Below the pieces are notes generated by a model. That model made no database searches. It saw nothing but the letters and a program-made list of their open reading frames with translations, and had not been told where the DNA came from. From the IMG/VR virus record IMGVR_UViG_3300046543_000437, positions 258-64,257 of that record: 64,000 nt of DNA; one strand, written 5' to 3'. Both the position numbers and the translations under genes were made by a program. This stretch comes from a virus. Lineage: Duplodnaviria; Caudoviricetes. Positions within the stretch are counted from its first letter, which is position 1, and each line of letters starts with the position of its first letter. This document shows positions 1 to 55,139 of this stretch, piece after piece.

Positions 1-275
1 TCATGGCTCACCAGACATAACCCGAACTGAACCGCCATCTCATGCCCCTACCGCTTTCGTGCCTAACCGCCCACAAGCATCCCCGCCGTGACCGCCGTAC
101 CGTACCCAATCGCACCGTTCAAAAACCCGACACACCCCACAGACCATAACCGCCGTACCCAGTGCAGTCTTACCGATCCATTTCGCGCATCGACCCACCT
201 GACCCTGACCGCCAAATGGCACCACAACAATTCGTGCGACACCCAATCTTGACCTGACCGCCGCTCCGTGCCGCT
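1..275 (-). ncRNA. Putative guide-RNA array (VIPR-like): ~59-nt units of GGY-like/NN pentamers bounded by GGCGGT; truncated by the window edge
   Basis: + strand ACCGCC at 31, 91, 149, 208 and 257 (spacing 60/58/59/49). Unit 213->149 reads GGCGGT CAG GGT CA GGT GG GTC GA TGC GC GAA AT GGA TC GGT AA GAC TG CAC TG GGT AC GGC GGT. It lies just downstream of a RAMP-like gene. Confidence 0.72.
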
Positions 276-334
276 GCCACCGGGCGCAGCGGGCACCCGG
301 TGGTCAGCCATTAGTCGCACCAAATTGGTGACTT

Positions 335-1252
335 TTAGCCGTGGAAATCCTCCACCCCGTTCTTCCCCACCGGCAACGGCTTTGTCACCTCATGTGGAGC
401 AAGAAGCGTGGTGTCTTCACCGGCACGGAACTGAATCTCGCCGGGGGTATCATCCTCGTCCGTGATGTCTTCCGGCTTCTCTTTGTCCGGATCGATGCCC
501 CGGCTCTTCAACTCTTCCAGATACCAGACCATCAACTCCTCGCTTTCGGCGTTGGCGCACACCGGAACCCGCAGCGCCTCAACCTGGGCCTGGTAGCTTC
601 CCTCGGCCATGATGTCGGCCAACTCCTTGTCGTCTTCCTCGACGAGATGGAAGGCGCCGTATTCACCGCCCTTTTCCACCCGCCAATCACCGAGGCCGCA
701 GATGAACCCGGCGCTTATCAAAAGCTGCGTCACCTTCATGGCGTTGAGCATCGGCTCGGCCCACAACAGCTCGACCCGCATTGCCCAGCGGTCGAGCTTC
801 GCCCGCGTCCTCACATCGGGCGTCCGCGAAATGCCCGCCATGCGAACGATGGACATGTCGAGCTTGGGGATGCCCCAGAGCGGAATCTTCTCGGCCGGCG
901 AGCGGACGAGTTGCTTCATCTCCGTCTTGCTGGCGCTGGTGGGCATCCGCAGAGCCGCCGAGGCGATCGACATTTTGGGCGCGCTGCCCATCATCTCGAA
1001 ATAGGTTTCGCCCTCTCTGGACCGCAGATAGGGTGAATCGCGGTACTCGGCATACGGCGCATGCTTGAGCTTGGTTGCCTTCTGCGTCTTGGTCATCGGG
1101 CCGTGCGGGAGGAGCAACTCGCGCTTGCCCTTGGCCGCCATCCTGTTGCAGAAGAACGGCGTATCGCCGACCAGCCAATAAACGTGAGAGGACTGCTTCA
1201 AGTCCATAACGTCGATTTCGACTTGCGGCGTAGCTTTGATTGTGCGTGCCAT
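335..1252 (-). CDS. Stand-alone Cas7/RAMP-like RNA-binding protein (Vipr-like)
   Basis: RAMP-like beta1 YWLVGDTPFFCNR, helix GSAPKMSIASAA (compare Cas7-family PGSSxKG), C-terminal Gly-rich loop GFICGLGDWRVEKGGEYGAF, acidic tail. Confidence 0.75.
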   Translation of the reverse strand: MARTIKATPQVEIDVMDLKQSSHVYWLVGDTPFFCNRMAAKGKRELLLPHGPMTKTQKATKLKHAPYAEYRDSPYLRSREGETYFEMMGSAPKMSIASAALRMPTSASKTEMKQLVRSPAEKIPLWGIPKLDMSIVRMAGISRTPDVRTRAKLDRWAMRVELLWAEPMLNAMKVTQLLISAGFICGLGDWRVEKGGEYGAFHLVEEDDKELADIMAEGSYQAQVEALRVPVCANAESEELMVWYLEELKSRGIDPDKEKPEDITDEDDTPGEIQFRAGEDTTLLAPHEVTKPLPVGKNGVEDFHG

Positions 1253-1336
1253 AATCGTGGTTCCTTCCTGGGAACTGAGGTTGGTGGAGTACCTTTGAGG
1301 CGGGCCGGTGCAAACGGCCCGTCCTCTCCAGCTTGA

Positions 1337-1588
1337 TCAAGGTGCTTTGCTTGCCTCTAGAGCCTTTGGCAGATCGTCTATCACGCGGACGACCTCTGCC
1401 ATTTCTGGCAGATGCCGAACCTTGTCGGCAAAACACCGGCATCGGGAAACCGCATCATCGAGAGAAGCCAGCGGTTTCCCATCGGGAAAAAGCGTACCCA
1501 ACAATTCGGCTTTGACCTCCTTGCTGAAGTTGCCTGTAATGCGAAACGGCTGATCGCCAAGCACATAGATGTTTTTTCGTGTCGGCAT
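1337..1588 (-). CDS. Hypothetical protein
   Basis: 83-aa ORF with AAGGAGGG RBS, co-oriented in the operon. Confidence 0.65.
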   Translation of the reverse strand: MPTRKNIYVLGDQPFRITGNFSKEVKAELLGTLFPDGKPLASLDDAVSRCRCFADKVRHLPEMAEVVRVIDDLPKALEASKAP

Positions 1589-1602: not shown

Positions 1603-2127
1603 TTATGCGCTTCCACCCGGCGGCTGGTCTGGACCCAGCGGGTCGTCCGGGTTGATCCGCTTCTCGACGATCGAGGCGAGGCGAATGATCTCGTCAACGT
1701 GGTCTGCCGTGCCGAGAACCGCGGCGATGTTGCGGGCGCGCTTTGCCGCCTTCTTCACGCGATCCATCTCGTCGAGGATGGTGTCGCGCGACCGCTCCTC
1801 GTTCTTTTGTACCCGCAGGATGTTGGTGTACTGATCCTTGGTCGTCGTATCGCGGACGAAGCGGGTGACATCGAGCGACACCTCGCGGACGATGACTTCC
1901 ATCTTGATCCTCCGGATCAGCAGCGCGGCGGTATTGAGCCAATCGTTTTCTGCCGCCTTCTGGAGATCCCAGCGGAAGAAACCGTGCATGGCCGACAGCG
2001 GGTCGCGCGCCCGCTCGACCACAGCCAGCTTGGCGACATTGCCGTTCTCGTCCTCCAACTCGATGATCTCTCTCGCGACATCTTGCATATTAATCGGCAT
2101 AGCTTCTCTCCTCTTCACCCCCGCCAA
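1603..2127 (-). CDS. Conserved phage protein, candidate accessory factor of the RAMP-like system (start possibly 2100)
   Basis: Motif VVERARDPLSAMHGFFRWDLQKAA...AALLIRRI resembles a phage family I recall next to RAMP-like genes. Confidence 0.65.
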   Translation of the reverse strand: MAGVKRREAMPINMQDVAREIIELEDENGNVAKLAVVERARDPLSAMHGFFRWDLQKAAENDWLNTAALLIRRIKMEVIVREVSLDVTRFVRDTTTKDQYTNILRVQKNEERSRDTILDEMDRVKKAAKRARNIAAVLGTADHVDEIIRLASIVEKRINPDDPLGPDQPPGGSA

Positions 2128-2432: not shown

Positions 2433-2756
2433 TCAATCTCTCCAGCCGGGGCTGTGATCGATGTCCCATTCGGAAACGTCTTCCCCCGGCGAAAACCCCC
2501 ACTCCATGTTCATCTGCACCGGATCGACCCAGTACTCGCCCAGCGGATCGAGGTGCGAAGCGTGGTGACAGTCGCGGCATAGCGCGTAGAGGTCTTCAGG
2601 CCGTTCCCTGCCCTGGCTGTTGTAGTGCCGGTGATGCAGTTCCAGGCGTCGGCGACGACCGCACCGCTCGCAGCGATTCCCGGCACGACCGAGAACCGCG
2701 ACTCGCGTTTCCGCCGGGATCGGCAGACGCGGGTCATAGGGGCGGCCCGGTGTCAT
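2433..2756 (-). CDS. HNH endonuclease
   Basis: CERC...LELHHRHY...LCRDCH. Confidence 0.85.
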   Translation of the reverse strand: MTPGRPYDPRLPIPAETRVAVLGRAGNRCERCGRRRRLELHHRHYNSQGRERPEDLYALCRDCHHASHLDPLGEYWVDPVQMNMEWGFSPGEDVSEWDIDHSPGWRD

Positions 2757-2759
2757 CGA

Positions 2760-3260
2760 TCAATCCACGCTGTTCTTGATCGAAGTGATCAGGTGCGGCT
2801 CGGCGTACTTTCCTTCCAACGCCGCCGCGACCTTCTGGATGTTTCGCAGCGCCGTTAGAAAGCCCCAACGCAGATCGATCTCAAAGGCGTTCTTGGGAGT
2901 GGTAAATGCGCGTTCACAATCCGGCGGCATCTTGGTAAACATCTCGCTGCAATATTCGACAATCGTGTCGAACATCGAGCACGTTTCTCTAAGCTGCTTG
3001 GATGTAACCGGCAAATTTAGTTGTTTATATTTATTGTAACCCTTTTTCGGATTTTCCCTGCCGACATCCACGATATAACCGGCCCGTACCAAGTTTCTTC
3101 GTTCTCGCTGCACGATCCTAGAAGATGAGTTTACCTCTTCCTCTATTTTTAAATTTGGTAGGTACGGATTCTTGATAAGGGCGCGACGAATCTTGTCGAT
3201 ATGCTCTTCCCATCCCGGCGCCGCTTTAGGTAGAGGCACCAACTCCACTGCGGTGGTCAT
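2760..3260 (-). CDS. Hypothetical protein (AT-richer; possible DNA-binding N-terminus)
   Basis: 166-aa ORF tightly packed in the operon. Confidence 0.7.
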   Translation of the reverse strand: MTTAVELVPLPKAAPGWEEHIDKIRRALIKNPYLPNLKIEEEVNSSSRIVQRERRNLVRAGYIVDVGRENPKKGYNKYKQLNLPVTSKQLRETCSMFDTIVEYCSEMFTKMPPDCERAFTTPKNAFEIDLRWGFLTALRNIQKVAAALEGKYAEPHLITSIKNSVD

Positions 3261-3264
3261 GGCT

Positions 3265-4065
3265 CTACACTCCGATCCCTTGAAACCGGCTCAGTCCCTC
3301 ATTGTCGTTTTCGAGTCTGCGTACTGCGACCAGCATCTTTTTGGCGGCAGACTGTTGTATTGCTCTTTTTGCCGCTCCCAGCGCACCGGCCCGCGCCCGC
3401 GCATTTTTTTCCCGGTCGATTACCGGAGCCCGACTCCGCTTTTTCTTCGGCTGGATTTGGTAGATGTTCGGACGGTGAACCCTGAACTCCAGCGATACGA
3501 CTTCTTCCGGGTGCCCCTTATCGATCAAAATCGGGATGCACGCGGCGCTCCTTGGGATTTTGTACTCCCAGTATTCTGTCTCGAACCAGATCTCCATCTG
3601 GCCGCTGCGGATGACGATGTCTTTTGCCTCCGGGAATGTACGCCATGCAGCAAGAACCAGCGTGCAACGCCTTGGGTCACCCGGCACGCCATTATCGATA
3701 TCGGGCTGCATGACCGTGATATGCCGTACCGTTCTTCTTATTATCTTTTTTGCTTTCACGGGTTTCATGGCTGGCGGGGGTTTGATCTTCTGAGCGTCGA
3801 AATCAAACGGCGCCGGCGGATCGAGAACATCACTCAAAGGATCGTAGGTGGATTTGGCATGAATGAATTCATGGCAACCTTCACAGACGCCCTGCAAATC
3901 GGTTAATGCCTCGTTGCCTTTGCGTTCATACGTCAAGTGATGCACCGCATGCATCTCGTTGGCACCGCAACGCTCGCACGTTCCGTTACACCGGACGCGA
4001 ACCGCTTCGCGTTTAAGCGACCACTCGCGTGAGGCGAGGTATTCATTGTATTCAGCCTTATTCAT
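3265..4065 (-). CDS. HNH endonuclease domain protein with C-terminal extension
   Basis: YLASREW..KR...CERC...VHHLTY...VCEGCH..IH. Confidence 0.8.
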   Translation of the reverse strand: MNKAEYNEYLASREWSLKREAVRVRCNGTCERCGANEMHAVHHLTYERKGNEALTDLQGVCEGCHEFIHAKSTYDPLSDVLDPPAPFDFDAQKIKPPPAMKPVKAKKIIRRTVRHITVMQPDIDNGVPGDPRRCTLVLAAWRTFPEAKDIVIRSGQMEIWFETEYWEYKIPRSAACIPILIDKGHPEEVVSLEFRVHRPNIYQIQPKKKRSRAPVIDREKNARARAGALGAAKRAIQQSAAKKMLVAVRRLENDNEGLSRFQGIGV

Positions 4066-5041
4066 GGTTCGTCTCCCTGCCTATCCCGTCCCGCCAGATT
4101 TCCCCCGTACCCCGCATCGCGTACTCGACCCACACCCCGTCATCGGCGGCATCGATCTGTTCGCCGTTGATCAGCGACGGCAGGAAGAGGTGCGACTTGC
4201 AGCCTTTTTCCTGTTCCTCGCGGCTGAGCGGCTTGTTCCAGCGGTCGCAGCGCCAGCCGCCGTCGACCGGCGTCGAGGCGAGGCAGGTGCGACAGTTACG
4301 CGGCGGCATCTCGCCCTGATGGCAAACTGCGTGATGGTCGCACCAGCGGCATTCGTGCCACGCCGGGTCTTCGCTGATCCGCATCGGCGCGCGGGTCGCG
4401 TAGATGACCCGTTGAGCGCGCTCAGTCAGTTGACCGGCGTAGTGCTTCTCGTAATCGGTTCTGACCGAGACCGTGTGCCGCCCGCCCGGTGTCGCCACCG
4501 TCATGTAGTGCCGGGTCAATTCGGTGTAGTGCATGTAAAGCTGGGCGGTCGACCAGTACATCGGCTTCCAGGCGAACAGCGCGTGTTTCTCGCCGCGATC
4601 CATCTTCAGCGCCTCAAGCTTGCGCTGCGACTTTTCCTCGACCTGCTTGTGTTCCCAGACGTGCGGCGTCTTGGGCGACTGAATCAGTCCGGTGATCACG
4701 CCGTCGATGCGGCCCTGGAAGTGACCGCCGCAGTCGGAAAACGCCCACTGCTTCTGACCGCGATTAGGGTCGCGGTCCCACAGGATGATCCCTTTGACCA
4801 ACCGCAGCCGCGCGGCCTGCACGGTCTCGCCGTGATTACCGTCCGCAAACCGCTTCAGCGCATCGGCGGGAAACGCCACGGCTGACCCGGCCCAGCGGAA
4901 GCTGTAGAACAGCGCCCGGTCGCAGGGGCTGCCGATCGACCCCATGCTCAGCGACAGGCCGCGCCACTTGTCCTGCTTGGCCTCGATCGCGCGGTCGACC
5001 GCGGCGAGTGTCGGGTCTTGCGGGGAGGGGATCGCCGCCAT
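4058..5041 (-). CDS. Cas4-like PD-(D/E)XK phage exonuclease
   Basis: SIGSPCDR, GRIDG, WEHK, QLYM, CRWC...C motifs; next to SSB and Sak4-like genes. Confidence 0.85.
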   Translation of the reverse strand: MAAIPSPQDPTLAAVDRAIEAKQDKWRGLSLSMGSIGSPCDRALFYSFRWAGSAVAFPADALKRFADGNHGETVQAARLRLVKGIILWDRDPNRGQKQWAFSDCGGHFQGRIDGVITGLIQSPKTPHVWEHKQVEEKSQRKLEALKMDRGEKHALFAWKPMYWSTAQLYMHYTELTRHYMTVATPGGRHTVSVRTDYEKHYAGQLTERAQRVIYATRAPMRISEDPAWHECRWCDHHAVCHQGEMPPRNCRTCLASTPVDGGWRCDRWNKPLSREEQEKGCKSHLFLPSLINGEQIDAADDGVWVEYAMRGTGEIWRDGIGRETNHE

Positions 5042-5748
5042 CAGCCGGTCGCCGTCAGCTTGGCGGCGCGTTCATGTTCCCGGCTCGCGCGCTCCAGCGC
5101 CCGTCTGCGGATTTCCTCCTGCACGGCGGGCGGCTGAGCTTCAAACCGGGCGACAAGCTCAGTCGCCCTCGCCAGCGTGTCCTTCTGGCCGACAAACGCC
5201 GCGACCAGAACCGTATTGGCGTTCCACTGCGGATGACCGGCGATGTAGTTTTCCGCCGCCAGCCGCAGCGCCAGTTCCATGACGCGCTCGTCAGCGGTTC
5301 GAGTATCGAACACCCATGCCGGACTGTTGCGCCCACCGTTGAAGCTGTCGACGAGGCCGATAATCGAGAACGCCCGACAATCGTAAAGGCGGCATGCCTG
5401 CGGGCGATGCTGATAGACCGTACACTCGCCGCCGGAGCCAAGATGGACACAGGCGCCGTCATCGCGCTTCGCCAGAACAAAGCCGTTGCCGTCCGCGTGT
5501 GGAACGACATCGAGCTGTGCGAGGTCTTCGGGCCGCTCCTTGTCGGGATAGACATCGACGCGAGCGTGATAGCAGCACTGGTTGCAGCCCTGGCACGGGA
5601 CCGCGGCCTCGCGGTCAAAACTGAGCTTGCCGAGAAACGGCCCTAACCCCCCGCCGTAGCGGGTCTGGTAGGTCTTCCCGTTGGTCGCGTCGGTCGTGGT
5701 TCCGATGACCTTACCGACTGCCCCCCGGCGGCGCTTGGCCTCGCCCAT
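5041..5748 (-). CDS. YkgJ-family (CxxCxxCC) metal-cluster protein
   Basis: CQGCNQCC...GACVHL...CTVYQHRPQACRLYDC. Confidence 0.85.
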   Translation of the reverse strand: MGEAKRRRGAVGKVIGTTTDATNGKTYQTRYGGGLGPFLGKLSFDREAAVPCQGCNQCCYHARVDVYPDKERPEDLAQLDVVPHADGNGFVLAKRDDGACVHLGSGGECTVYQHRPQACRLYDCRAFSIIGLVDSFNGGRNSPAWVFDTRTADERVMELALRLAAENYIAGHPQWNANTVLVAAFVGQKDTLARATELVARFEAQPPAVQEEIRRRALERASREHERAAKLTATG

Positions 5749-5760
5749 CGCAACCCATCC

Positions 5761-6285
5761 TTATGCGGAGGGCCGCGCCCGCCACGGCGGCGCTGACGGG
5801 CGTCCCTGCGACTGCGGCTGCGGCTGCTGGGACTGCGGCTGGAACTGTTGCTGCTGCGACCCGAACCCCGCGACGGGCGCGGCGCCGTCCACGGGATAGT
5901 AGTTATGGACCCGGTTCTGATCGGCGTAGTTGCCCTTGCCTTTCTCGACCCGGAGTTCGATCACCATGCGGCGGGCATGAAGCAATTCGCTGTCATCGAC
6001 CGATAGCTGCCCCGTCGCGTGACAGATCGCGCTCAGCGTGCGCTGGGCGATATCGACGGTCTGTTGGCTTTGATTGAACAGGTTCAGCCGGTCGAACACC
6101 TTCTTGCCGGTTTGCGGCCCTTCAAGGATCTCCATCTGAAGTTCGAGGTAGCGCCCGCTGCGATCCTTGGTGTCCTTCATGTCGCTGGAGATGATGTGGG
6201 CGACGTATTTCCCCTCCGGGAGAAGTGGGTAACCGCGATTGGGATCGACCTGCGTAGCGTCGAACTGGTATCCGAGTTGGGCCAT
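5761..6285 (-). CDS. DUF669-type phage ssDNA-binding protein
   Basis: LPEGKY, YLELQMEI, DRLNL, LSAICHATG and a Q/P-rich tail ending PPW. Confidence 0.85.
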   Translation of the reverse strand: MAQLGYQFDATQVDPNRGYPLLPEGKYVAHIISSDMKDTKDRSGRYLELQMEILEGPQTGKKVFDRLNLFNQSQQTVDIAQRTLSAICHATGQLSVDDSELLHARRMVIELRVEKGKGNYADQNRVHNYYPVDGAAPVAGFGSQQQQFQPQSQQPQPQSQGRPSAPPWRARPSA

Positions 6286-52144: not shown

Positions 52145-53758
52145 TTACCGCACCTGAGACAGTACGGGGTAAAAGTCACAGGTCGAACTCGACCCGTCCT
52201 CGGCGGTCAGTGTGAGAAGCCCTTCGTTATCGATCGTCGCGCTGACGATCCGCCCCGGCGGGCCGCGTTCCCCACGCGGACCCGCTTCACCCTTCTCCCC
52301 ACGCTGACCTTGCTTGGCGATCAGTTGCCAATTCTCGCCGGGGCAAACCCCAGGCTGGTCAGACCGCGCAATAAACGACGCGCCGCCGAGCGCCACGATG
52401 TCCAAAGCGCGATAATCTGTCCCGGCTTTCCAAGTACCGCGAACGGTCAACGAGCGGCCATCGACCCCCGGCGCCGCCAAACAGATCCAATCGTCATGCG
52501 GCGGCGGATGCCCGGTGTCCCGCTGGGCCTGCCAGGTGGCTCCCTCACGAACGACGACCTCCCCCTCGTAATGGACGCCGTCCTGCCACAGCTTGACCGG
52601 CGGCAGCTTGCCGATCAGCCCTTCTGCCCCACGTTCGCCGCGCTCACCGGCCTCACCACGCGGTCCCAGATCGCCGTCACGCCCCGGCATTCCCGGCTCA
52701 CCGCGCTCACCGATCTCGCCGCGCTCGCCCTGTGGCCCCGCTTCGCCGCGTTCGCCGGGTAGACCGGCTTCGCCGCGCTCGCCCGGTAGACCGGCTTCGC
52801 CGCGCTCGCCCACCGCCCCTGCTTCGCCACGCTCACCGGGCAATCCCGGCTCGCCACGCAGCCCCGGTTCGCCATCACGGCCCGCCGTGCCAGCCGGACC
52901 CATCGGCCCCGGCTCGCCGTCCTCGCCATCGGCACCGTTGACACCATCATCGCCGTCTTCACCGGGTTCGCCTTGCGGCCCCGGCGGTCCCGGCTGGCCC
53001 GCTGGTCCCGGCGGCCCCGGCTCGCCCTGCGCGCCGGCTGGTCCCGCTTCTCCAGGCTCGCCATCTGCGCCGTCTTTACCGTCCGCTCCGGCTGGTCCCG
53101 GCGGTCCCGGATCGCCCTTGGCTCCAGGCGGTCCCGGTTCGCCTTGCGGCCCCGGCTGACCATCCATACCGGCGACGCCGTCATCGCCGTCATCGCCCGG
53201 TGGACCCATCGGCCCGATGTCGCCCTTCGGCCCCATCGGCCCCGGCGGGCCGACTTCAGGCGCGGGCAACCGCGTCAAGGCAGTCTCGACGATCAGCCGC
53301 GCCATCACGGCCTCGTCTGGCGGCGGCCCCATCGGCCCCAGCAACCCCGGCTCACCGCGCGCCCCGCGCTCGCCTTGTGGCCCAGGAAGCCCCTGTTCGC
53401 CAGATGGGCCTGTGACAGCCTCACCGGGCAATCCACGCTCCCCAGCCTCACCACGCTCGCCCTGCGGGCCGATCTCGCCGCGGTCCCCCTTCTCGCCTTG
53501 CGGACCCGGTGGGCCGACAATGGTTTCCCCCGGCTGACCACGCTCGCCTTGCGGGCCTTGCTCGCCGTTCCGCAGCGTCATCAGCCGGGTCACGATTTGC
53601 AGTTCGAGCTCAGCCTTGAACGCGCGCAGAGACTCGATTTCCTGTCGAAGCTCTGCCAGACCGGCTGTCAGGGATAGCTTGACCTCTCGCTCAATCCGAG
53701 CGGCGACAGCCCCCATGACCTCGCCAAGAACATCAGGCAGCGAGTCGATGGCGGTCAT
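52145..53758 (-). CDS. Collagen-like head/neck fibre protein
   Basis: Long Gly-X-Y runs; C-terminal RGTW...Y...DIV..GG.SFIA modules. Confidence 0.88.
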
Positions 53759-55139
53759 ATGAAGCGCGGAAGGCGGCACGGAAGGCAGCGTTTTGTTGCT
53801 GCTGTTGCTCTGGTGCATTTGTGTCGCCCCCGTCAGTCGGTGCCGGCGGCGGTGTCGGCGGGGTCGCGGATGGCGGTGATGGAGGTTCCATCTTTGCGCC
53901 GTAGCTCAACGGCACAACTTGCTGTTGCACCCGTGGCATGTCGCCGTAGCCGCCCTTGACCTTCGGCAGGTCTTCGCTCGCCCGCGCCTCGTCCGGCGAG
54001 TAGATGCCACTGATGACACCGCGCGCCAACGCCTCGATCCGCTCGCGATAAGCCGAGCGAAGAAGCGCCTTGGTGTCGAATTCGAGGTACTCGTCAGGAT
54101 AGCCCGCCAAACCGAACATCTGGCCGAAAGCTTCCTCGATGTGGTTCAGCGCAAAGCCGAGGCCGCTCGCGATCCACGACTGCATCAGCAATTCGGTCGA
54201 GTTGTAGGTCGTGCCGCCGAGGCCGAAAATCTGAAGCGGAATCCGCAGCGCCAGAGCGATGTTCTGGTCGCTCATCTTAAGGATTTCGGCAAGCTGGGAA
54301 TCGACCGCATTGATCACGGCGGGCTTCGCTTTGAGGCCGTGAGTGAGGATCGGGCTGTTCCCGGCATTCTCGCCTTGCGTCTGATCGTCCCACCTCGAAC
54401 GCGCATCCTCGACCTGTTGCCGGGTCAGCGGCTGGTCAGTCTCCAGCATGTAGGAGGGGCGAGCCATGTTGAGGTAGAAGGCGAGTTGCTGCGACAGCGC
54501 CGCGGTCGACATCGCCAGTTCGAGCGCCGCCGCAAGGATCGGGCTGACGCCTTTCAGCGGATGAACCGGAGTATGCAGCCGGACGTGCAGAACATCGCGC
54601 GCCGGAGCCGGGATCGTCAGATCGAACCGCCGTTGGGCGATCTCGTTGCCCCACAGGCTGTAGAAGACGCTGCCGTCCTCGCCGATCATGGCGATGCCGC
54701 TCCGCATCAGATGCAACTCGGTGATCTCGCTGCGGGCGTTGCGCTGAGCCACCGCGAACACCTCGCCCTTGTCGTAAAGGCGACGTGTCAGGTTCATCAT
54801 AAAATCGGAGATGCTCTCATAATCGTTGGGGGTCTTGATGATCCGTTGCAGGGCGCTGGTGGTGACGCGCTCGCGCCCGCCGTCACGGGTGCGGCGCCAG
54901 TGGTCGCCAGGACACATGGCAACGGTCTGGCTGTACGCCGAGACGCACGCCTCGACCATCGCGCTGCGCTGACCGTAGGGCTGCGGCTTGTATCCGGTCT
55001 GCCACCAGTTCCAATAGCGACCGGCGCTGGCAGTGATCAAGCCGCCGCCGGGATCGTCGACCCAATACGGGCCGGGACGGTACTGCCCCTCGACAGCCCG
55101 CTTGCCCCACGGCAGCAGGTTGGTCAGCCAGTTTGCCAT
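53733..55139 (-). CDS. HK97-family portal protein
   Basis: [35 protein letters not shown]. Confidence 0.95.

What the first reader, a model, noticed from the sequence alone, without database searches (positions are those of the whole stretch)
1..1252. Stand-alone Cas7/RAMP-like phage protein plus a pentamer-coded RNA array: candidate non-CRISPR RNA-guided (VIPR-like) system
Seen: the 305-aa ORF has RAMP hallmarks (LVGDTPFFCNR, GSAPKMSIASAA, Gly-rich loop GLGDWRVEKGGEYGAF). There is no cas1, cas2, cas5, cas6 or cas8 and no canonical CRISPR array in the window. Directly downstream on the same strand is a non-coding, strongly G/T-skewed array with 5-nt periodicity. Known: Cas7-family RAMPs polymerise along guide RNAs with a fixed periodicity. 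Inference: many copies of this protein coat each RNA unit, gripping the conserved GGY-like triplets and displaying the variable dinucleotides for gapped target recognition, e.g. silencing competing phages or host genes. This matches my recollection of the recently reported VIPR (Viral Interference Programmable Repeat) systems, which I cannot verify here.
Basis: partly seen in the sequence, partly recalled or inferred. Interest (0 to 1): 0.95.

Follow-up and report, generated by a model that had tools for sequence, protein, structure and literature searches.

The report
Phage VIPR guide-RNA locus

Summary
ORF 335..1252 (minus strand, 305 aa) has a Cas7-type RAMP fold. The only Protein Data Bank sequence that its family profile matches is the SUSP1 Vipr protein (E 5.3e-8), across the G-loop that grips the GG bases.

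Directly downstream on the same strand lies a G/T-rich non-coding array. It runs from window 262 to 1 and on for 257 more bases to the contig end. It holds about 10 units of 49-65 nt, each opening with GGCGGT(Y) and then keeping a relaxed GGY-NN pentamer register.

In 95 of 106 related loci the strongest period-5 G signal lies just downstream of the homologous gene. A 174-aa neighbour (1603..2127) is syntenic in 73 of 115 loci and is a candidate vap gene. The record is a tailed phage with no Cas1, Cas2 or CRISPR array.

This matches published VIPR systems, probably the "staggered array" architecture. Expression, RNA binding and targets are untested, and my target searches found nothing above chance. 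The periodicity is weak inside the window alone.

This scan has already reported VIPR loci on other DNA (23 findings hold the search words). Verdict: a new member of a known kind.

The parts
335..1252 (-). vipr gene: 305-aa Vipr-family RAMP. The core is residues ~16-214, followed by a helical C-terminal part and a low-confidence acidic tail (~260-305).
   Evidence: ORF. AlphaFold2 model with pLDDT 83.7. Foldseek top match Csm3 6ifn_F at E 4.3e-5. VIA-align top match 9g9a_D at Z 8.2, rmsd 3.9, 150 residues aligned. Profile hit to SUSP1 Vipr 36pp_D at E 5.3e-8. 93 close homologues and 1305 cluster representatives at E<=1e-3.
263..334 (-). Conserved leader between the stop codon and the first array unit. 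It holds two predicted hairpins, at window 333..313 and 308..273.
   Evidence: 85% mean column identity with L002 and L004. L002 shows one compensatory change, C-G to U-A, in the large stem. Fold energy is -40.9 kcal/mol, z -2.18, and 6 of 200 shuffles fold as well. Its function is unknown.
1..262 (-). vrRNA array, window part. Units start with GGCGG[TC] at window 262, 213, 154, 96 (with an internal motif at 71) and 36. The array continues for 257 bases beyond window position 1 to the contig end, with further motifs at genome 234, 169, 115, 60 and 9.
   Evidence: The unit logo from 115 units of this clade reads GGCGGT-Y-NN-(GG-Y-NN)n. Register statistics are G1 0.80, GG 0.47, GGY 0.37, Y3 0.81, against 0.61, 0.35, 0.25, 0.64 for the shuffled array.
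1603..2127 (-). 174-aa candidate accessory (vap-like) gene, of unknown fold family.
   Evidence: tblastn homologues in 73 of 115 related loci, all on the vipr strand: 63 just downstream (median gap 51 nt) and 10 upstream. phrog_15946, unknown function, E 3.4e-8. No Pfam family. Model pLDDT 84.3. No informative structural match.
1337..1588 (-). 83-aa ORF between the candidate vap and vipr. It may not belong to the system.
   Evidence: Homologues only in L001-L003, 3 of 115 loci. No Pfam or PHROG family.

Best explanation
This is a VIPR (Viral Interference Programmable Repeat) locus of a tailed soil phage.

Shown here:
- a Vipr-family RAMP gene;
- a conserved same-strand partner gene;
- a downstream non-coding array of about 10 head-to-tail units of 49-65 nt. 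Each unit opens with GGCGGT(Y) and then runs in GG-Y-NN pentamers.

Inferred from the published SUSP1 work:
- the array is transcribed and cut into single vrRNAs of about 10-12 pentamers;
- one Vipr protomer binds each pentamer, holding the GG and Y bases with the thumb arginine (R150 here) and the G-loop (D189, W190, R191 here);
- the NN dinucleotides pair with double-stranded DNA while every third target base is skipped;
- the bound filament blocks transcription of a rival mobile element.

Many unit spacings are 5n-1. The terminal GGCGG pentamer of one unit then shares one G with the first pentamer of the next. This fits the 'staggered, 1-nt overlapping' arrays named in that paper's fig. S18 legend.
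For: Protein:
- The fold is RAMP.
- The A1 profile matches only the SUSP1 Vipr protein in the PDB (E 5.3e-8, profile positions 147-201 on chain residues 136-186). The single sequence gives E 0.03.
- Those alignments put own R150, D189, W190 and R191 on SUSP1 R138, D177, W178 and R179. The structure preprint names these residues as the GG/Y contacts.
- R150, D189 and R191 are invariant in 39 aligned homologues.

Array:
- Period-5 G signal: 0 of 2000 shuffles reach the observed value over 560 nt.
- The unit logo keeps GG-Y-NN to about position 56.
- Own spacings modulo 5 are 4, 4, 3, 0, 0, 4, 0, 4, 0, 1. In L003, 24 of 49 spacings are 5n-1 and 16 of 49 are 5n (counted).
- No other strong minus-strand period-5 region exists in the genome.

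Association in relatives:
- In 95 of 106 related loci the strongest period-5 window over both strands lies on the gene's strand, from -75 to +2000 nt of the gene end. About 14.7 are expected by chance. Nine loci with under 1000 nt downstream were dropped.
- Distant relatives have near-perfect GGC-NN arrays with 4-nt steps at GGCAGGC.

Partner gene: 73 of 115 loci.

Context:
- Phage hallmark genes are present: TerL, portal, major head and tail proteins.
- There is no Cas1 or Cas2.

Guide turnover:
- Only 1 of 10 full own units is shared with L003 (identity 0.89; the rest score 0.65-0.72), although the vipr proteins are 82% identical.
Against: - The array is degenerate. Only 37% of parsed pentamers are GGY and 47% GG, against 25% and 35% for a shuffled copy parsed the same way.
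- Inside the window alone the Fourier signal is not above chance.
- The sequence link to a tested Vipr covers only about 55 residues.
- No expression data exist. No RNA run is listed, which is no evidence either way.
- No target was found. In a local database of the phage plus 115 loci, the one-base-skip rule scored no better than controls: mean best NN match was 0.773, against 0.771 (skip 0), 0.769 (skip 2) and 0.770 (shuffled guides).
- The record is a 68%-complete fragment and the array is cut by the contig end. Its full length and any 3' element are therefore unknown.
- Which of the seven published types this is could not be checked, because the supplements are closed.
Confidence: 0.86

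Rival explanations
1. A VIPR-derived locus that is decaying or has been re-purposed. The Vipr gene is intact, but the relaxed array (G-N-Y rather than GGY) no longer makes working guides, or it works as a decoy or sponge RNA for rival phages' Vipr proteins.
For: - Only 37% of own pentamers are GGY, against 96% in L055 and 78% in L011.
- No target was found.
- The third preprint's abstract reports satellite-encoded stand-alone vrRNAs that redirect a phage's VIPR to decoy sites.
Against: - The same relaxed statistics hold in the related L003 array of about 50 units (G1 0.84, GGY 0.37). The unit logo is kept across 115 units. This argues for selection on a relaxed consensus, not decay.
- The discovery preprint itself reports degenerate vrRNAs and alternative NNNGG, YNNNG and NNNNG repeats.
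- The protein's contact residues are invariant.
Confidence: 0.07
2. An RNA-guided system of the VIPR family whose output is not plain transcriptional silencing. It could be target cutting or RNA targeting, through the neighbouring HNH gene (2433..2756) or the 174-aa partner.
For: - The discovery preprint says types III-V carry predicted nucleases or helicases as vap genes and may destroy targets.
- An HNH ORF lies two genes upstream (Pfam HNH E 2.3e-6). It is kept next to the partner gene in L001-L003.
Against: - The HNH gene has homologues in only 3 of 115 related loci. HNH genes are common in phage replication modules, and a second one lies at 3265..4065.
- The widely conserved partner shows no nuclease or helicase family.
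Confidence: 0.06
3. A chance juxtaposition. The protein is a stand-alone Cas7-like protein with another role, and the G-rich stretch is a genome-end or packaging repeat unrelated to it.
For: - The array sits at the end of a linear record.
- The in-window periodicity is weak.
Against: - The gene-array link holds in 95 of 106 loci, most of them inside longer contigs.
- In L003 and L004 the array is internal.
- The record is a fragment without terminal repeats.
Confidence: 0.01

Closest known systems
VIPR systems with 'staggered' vrRNA arrays (bioRxiv 10.64898/2026.04.26.720920; Results text and the fig. S18 legend, the only parts on this that I could read)
   Same: - A lone Vipr RAMP gene with one accessory gene, in a phage.
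- No CRISPR array or cas genes.
- An array of head-to-tail GGY-NN vrRNAs without spacers between them.
- Unit spacings of 5n-1, which make neighbouring units share one base.
   Different: - Whether the published staggered arrays use a GGCGGT(Y) junction, or belong to this protein clade, is unknown, because the figure and supplements were not visible.
- Here the GGY consensus is relaxed.
- About 4 of 10 own spacings are 5n rather than 5n-1.
- The partner gene lies upstream, not between vipr and the array as in 63 of 73 relatives.
Type II VIPR of Escherichia phage SUSP1 (Vipr structure PDB 36pp; bioRxiv 10.64898/2026.04.26.720920 and 10.64898/2026.04.26.720927)
   Same: - Homologous G-loop and thumb-base region (E 5.3e-8).
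- The GG/Y contact residues are kept.
- Pentamer guide RNA with 9-16 repeats per guide; here it is about 10-12.
   Different: - SUSP1 Vipr is 202 aa and this protein is 305 aa. Only about 55 residues align by sequence.
- SUSP1 vrRNAs are about 100 nt and end in an invariant 3' tail with a pseudoknot. Here no tail is seen between units.
- No vap1 relationship was shown.
CRISPR Cas7-family RAMPs of type III effector complexes (Csm3/Cmr4, e.g. 6ifn, 9g9a, 6s6b)
   Same: RRM core, thumb hairpin and glycine-rich loop (Foldseek E 4.3e-5; VIA-align Z 8.2 and 8.1). They polymerise along a guide RNA with a fixed step (established knowledge, restated).
   Different: - Sequence identity is 9-14%.
- No CRISPR repeats, Cas1, Cas2 or other effector subunits are in the record.
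- The step is 5 nt rather than 6 nt, and the guide is gapped.

Membership tests
VIPR system | Vipr protein with a RAMP fold (RRM core, G-loop, thumb) | tested here: met
   AlphaFold2 model with pLDDT 83.7. The 24 Foldseek matches at E<=1e-3 that are printed are CRISPR RAMP chains. VIA-align ranks 1-22 are all CRISPR RAMPs, with top Z 8.2, rmsd 3.9 and 150 aligned residues. The long beta hairpin 122-166 and the loop GLGDWRVEKGG are in the model and sequence.
VIPR system | Sequence homology to an experimentally characterised Vipr | tested here: met
   The profile of 39 homologues matches one PDB sequence only, 36pp_D 'SUSP1 Vipr protein', at E 5.3e-8. The single sequence gives E 0.03. The match covers about 55 residues only.
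VIPR system | Residues that hold G1, G2 and Y3 of each repeat (SUSP1 R138, D177, W178, R179) | tested here: met
   HMMER alignments place R150, D189, W190 and R191 on them. R150, D189 and R191 are invariant in alignment A1. W190 is replaced by F, Y or G in a few members. The equivalents of H17 and K33 were not aligned.
VIPR system | Adjacent non-coding array of at least 4 tandem YNNGG (GGYNN) pentamers, or the related consensus | tested here: met
   The consensus is relaxed (G1 0.80, GG 0.47, Y3 0.81). The preprint allows degenerate and alternative repeats.
VIPR system | Gene-array association conserved among homologues | tested here: met
   95 of 106 loci, with about 14.7 expected by chance.
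VIPR system | Minimal locus with one accessory vap gene (vap1-6) | tested here: inconclusive
   A 174-aa partner is syntenic in 73 of 115 loci. Its identity with any published vap could not be checked: no vap sequence was at hand and the supplements are closed. Its fold is unassigned.
VIPR system | No CRISPR array and no cas adaptation genes; mostly viral context | tested here: met
   Cas1 and Cas2 profiles find nothing. There are no CRISPR-like repeats. Phage hallmark genes are present. The record is only 68% complete.
VIPR system | vrRNAs expressed and bound by Vipr | not testable with these tools
   No RNA run is listed. Only DNA contigs could be laid.
VIPR system | Targets that match the NN dinucleotides under the one-base-skip rule | tested here: inconclusive
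   There is no excess over controls in the local database. Exact-pattern scans gave 0, 1, 2, 0 and 0 viral hits and 10 metagenome hits, all compatible with chance. A mismatch-tolerant search of large collections was not possible.
CRISPR-Cas class 1 effector (Cas7) | Encoded with CRISPR repeats and other cas genes | tested here: not met
   The protein works like a Cas7 backbone subunit but is not part of a CRISPR-Cas locus.

The most novel reading that the evidence does not exclude
This clade may be a VIPR subtype not resolved in the published seven types. The clade is the window phage plus L001-L004, with Vipr of ~300 aa carrying an acidic tail.

Features that would set it apart:
- a relaxed G-N-Y-NN code;
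- a fixed GGCGGT(Y) junction;
- the partner gene moved upstream;
- very long arrays, with 50 GGCGGT motifs over ~2.6 kb in L003.

The array content turns over by whole-unit gain, loss and reshuffling at the junction motif. That would be a route to new guide sets without Cas1-Cas2.

Support:
- only 1 of 10 own units is shared with L003;
- contigs from other soil and rhizosphere samples join the same units in other orders exactly at unit borders (loose ends at window 7, 37 and 140; compare).
Probability: 0.2. Interest if true: 0.5.

Novelty: new member of a known kind. Interest (0 to 1): 0.3.

Why it matters
This adds one more natural VIPR locus, from a soil or rhizosphere phage.

What it adds:
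- The Vipr clade sampled here is large: 1305 cluster representatives at 50% identity, and at least 581 IMG/VR loci.
- The clade keeps its array and a 174-aa partner of unknown fold.
- It documents a relaxed pentamer consensus and a fixed unit junction. These could guide vrRNA callers, which at present demand GGY.

It does not change the picture given by the 2026 preprints. This scan has already met VIPR loci many times.

Tried and rejected
Tools that gave nothing for the protein or the array:
- Tandem Repeats Finder misses the array.
- Pfam gives no family for the protein. PHROGs gives only phrog_4652, unknown function.
- Rfam gives nothing on 1..1400.
- The promoter and terminator scans find nothing useful near the array.
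- tblastn against GenBank phages found only 5 Gordonia phage records at 23-26% identity, annotated as hypothetical proteins.

Expression:
- No RNA holder is listed.
- Laying four DNA runs gave contigs only.

Targets, local search:
- For 8 own guides under skip rules 0-3, skip 3 only re-found the array itself.
- For 75 guides of this clade (own 8, plus L003 and L004), skip 1 did not beat skip 0, skip 2 or shuffled guides.
- The first own unit matches the vipr gene of L003 at 17 of 20 NN positions and the phage's own vipr at 16 of 20, with the skipped base on the codon wobble position. Controls reach the same fractions, so I do not count this lead.

Targets, exact gapped-pattern scans:
- Unit 1 gave 0 viral hits and 10 metagenome hits. 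None lies in a vipr homologue and none extends to the last NN.
- The unit shared with L002 gave 1 viral hit, with the skip base on codon position 1 and flanks matching 2 of 4.
- Unit 8 gave 2 viral hits, neither in wobble phase.
- Two more units gave 0 hits each.

The 174-aa partner:
- The profile search against PDB sequences gave only coiled-coil noise.
- VIA-align wide matched only the helical hairpin 104-164.
- BFVD gave two unnamed viral proteins.
- Foldseek against the PDB gave nothing at E<=0.001.

Complex prediction of Vipr 1-260 with the 174-aa protein returned no verdict, score 0.00.

The supplements of the preprints were not opened.

Full report
What is there

The window is bases 258-64257 of a single 64,257-base virus record. 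IMG/VR classes the record as linear, and CheckV rates it 68% complete. It encodes a large terminase, a portal, a major head protein and tail proteins. It also holds a replication module with a Cas4-domain exonuclease, an SSB and HNH genes. So it is a tailed phage. Runs that hold the stretch are labelled soil or rhizosphere metagenomes.

The ORF of the finding lies at 335..1252 on the minus strand. Downstream on that strand come a 72-nt leader and then a G/T-rich stretch. That stretch runs to window position 1 and on for 257 more bases to the contig's first base.

The array

Over the 560 nt from the leader to the contig end, the composition is G 248, T 131, C 108, A 73. G power at period 5 is 2.52, against a shuffle mean of 0.24 and a maximum of 1.81. 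None of 2000 shuffles reaches the observed value. G autocorrelation peaks at every multiple of 5 up to 25.

Inside the window alone the Fourier signal is not above chance, because the register slips at unit borders: 810 of 2000 shuffles reach it. Lag-5 autocorrelation there is modest, reached by 26 of 2000 shuffles.

The motif GGCGG[TC] recurs with spacings of 49, 59, 58, 25, 35, 59, 65, 54, 55 and 51 nt. I aligned 115 such units, from this phage and its four close relatives, at that motif. The logo reads GGCGGT, Y, NN, then GG-Y-NN repeated to about position 56.

A register parse puts the border at GGCG|GTYNN. With a spacing of 5n-1, the last pentamer of one unit (GGCGG) therefore shares one G with the first pentamer of the next. 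Spacings of 5n-1 make up 4 of 10 own spacings and 24 of 49 in L003.

The consensus is relaxed:
- own array: G1 0.80, GG 0.47, GGY 0.37, Y3 0.81;
- a shuffled copy parsed the same way: 0.61, 0.35, 0.25, 0.64;
- L003 looks like the own array;
- distant relatives such as L055 are nearly perfect GGC-NN (GGY 0.96).

The protein

Pfam has no family for it. The AlphaFold2 model (39-sequence alignment, pLDDT 83.7) matches Cas7-type RAMPs:
- Foldseek gives 24 matches at E<=1e-3. Those printed are CRISPR RAMP chains, led by Csm3 of 6ifn at 4.3e-5.
- The Foldseek-independent search gives CRISPR RAMPs at ranks 1-22, with top Z 8.2, rmsd 3.9 A and 150 aligned residues.

By sequence, the family profile matches exactly one PDB sequence, 36pp 'SUSP1 Vipr protein', at E 5.3e-8. 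The single sequence gives E 0.03.

That alignment places own R150, D189, W190 and R191 on R138, D177, W178 and R179. The structure preprint gives these residues as the contacts to G1, G2 and Y3. R150, D189 and R191 are invariant in my alignment. The match covers only about 55 residues, and the protein is about 100 residues longer than SUSP1 Vipr.

Relatives

The family is large:
- 93 close proteins;
- 1305 cluster representatives at E<=1e-3;
- 35 of 40 pattern hits confirmed in genome contigs.

In 95 of 106 fetched loci, the strongest 150-nt period-5 G window over both strands lies on the gene's strand within -75 to +2000 nt of its end. About 14.7 are expected by chance. Nine loci were dropped for having under 1000 nt downstream.

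The 174-aa ORF at 1603..2127 has homologues in 73 of 115 loci, always on the vipr strand. It lies just downstream in 63 and upstream in 10. That explains the ~500-nt gap between gene and array in most relatives. Its fold could not be assigned. It is the obvious vap candidate, but I could not compare it with the published vap genes.

Comparison with what is known

Three 2026 bioRxiv preprints describe VIPR (listing).

Discovery paper. I read the Results, methods sections 18, 20, 24, 26 and 27, and passages that include the legends of figs S17-S22. It defines:
- a Vipr RAMP and a vap gene;
- vrRNAs of 9-16 YNNGG repeats, with tolerated degeneracy and alternative consensus forms;
- recognition of double-stranded DNA with one skipped base;
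- seven types;
- 'staggered arrays' whose vrRNAs overlap by one nucleotide.

Structure paper. I read the outline and sections 5 and 6.

Third paper. I read the outline with abstract and section 17.

Every defining feature that I could test is met. The exceptions are the vap identity and the natural targets, which stayed inconclusive, and expression, which cannot be tested here. The locus is therefore a member of a published kind. Earlier reports of this scan reached the same verdict on other DNA: 23 findings hold the search words.

Targets and turnover

No target emerged.
- Local scoring under the one-base-skip rule did not beat the controls.
- Six exact gapped-pattern scans (five distinct patterns) gave hit numbers expected by chance, with no wobble phasing.
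- The first unit matches vipr of L003 (17 of 20) and the phage's own vipr (16 of 20) in wobble phase. This is not above the control distribution.

Array content differs sharply between phages whose vipr proteins are 82% identical. One of 10 own units is shared with L003. Contigs from other samples join the units in other orders at the junction motif. This suggests unit-wise reshuffling, but I did not test it further.

Verdict

This is a new member of a known kind, of modest interest. The mechanism beyond the anatomy is inferred from the SUSP1 work.

Noticed in passing
L003:4737-7400 and L002:4986-6634: Close relatives carry far longer arrays of the same grammar. L003 has 50 GGCGGT motifs over about 2.6 kb, and the L002 array runs to the end of the fetched locus. 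The window phage's array is cut by its contig end.
   Followed up: partly
window 1-160 (loose ends at 7, 37, 140): Contigs from other soil and rhizosphere runs (X2-X4) leave the window's array exactly near unit borders and continue into units known from L002. So strains carry the same units in different orders or numbers.
   Followed up: partly
window 273-308 (minus strand): A GC-rich hairpin without a U-run lies between the vipr stop codon and the first unit. It is conserved in L002 and L004, with one compensatory pair. Its role is unknown; it could be processing, attenuation or array 5' end.
   Followed up: partly
L040, L041, L070, L076, L079, L115: In a minority of homologous loci the strongest pentamer array lies upstream of vipr. 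In L079 it lies directly before the start codon. The gene order is therefore variable within the family.
   Followed up: no
window 52145-53818 (minus strand): A tail-fibre gene with long collagen-like 9-nt-phased repeats. It accounts for most of the short-range direct repeats in the window.
   Followed up: no
window 2433-6285: The replication and recombination module next to the VIPR genes holds two HNH ORFs, a Cas4-domain exonuclease (phrog_1990, E 2.7e-69), a CxxCxxCC-domain protein and a DUF669 SSB.
   Followed up: no
GenBank phages MW534375.1, OP820472.1, NC_031249.1, MN234179.1: Cultured Gordonia phages (ODay, Ecliptus, UmaThurman, Pipp) encode distant homologues of this Vipr, at 23-26% identity, annotated as hypothetical proteins. 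They may offer an experimentally tractable relative.
   Followed up: no
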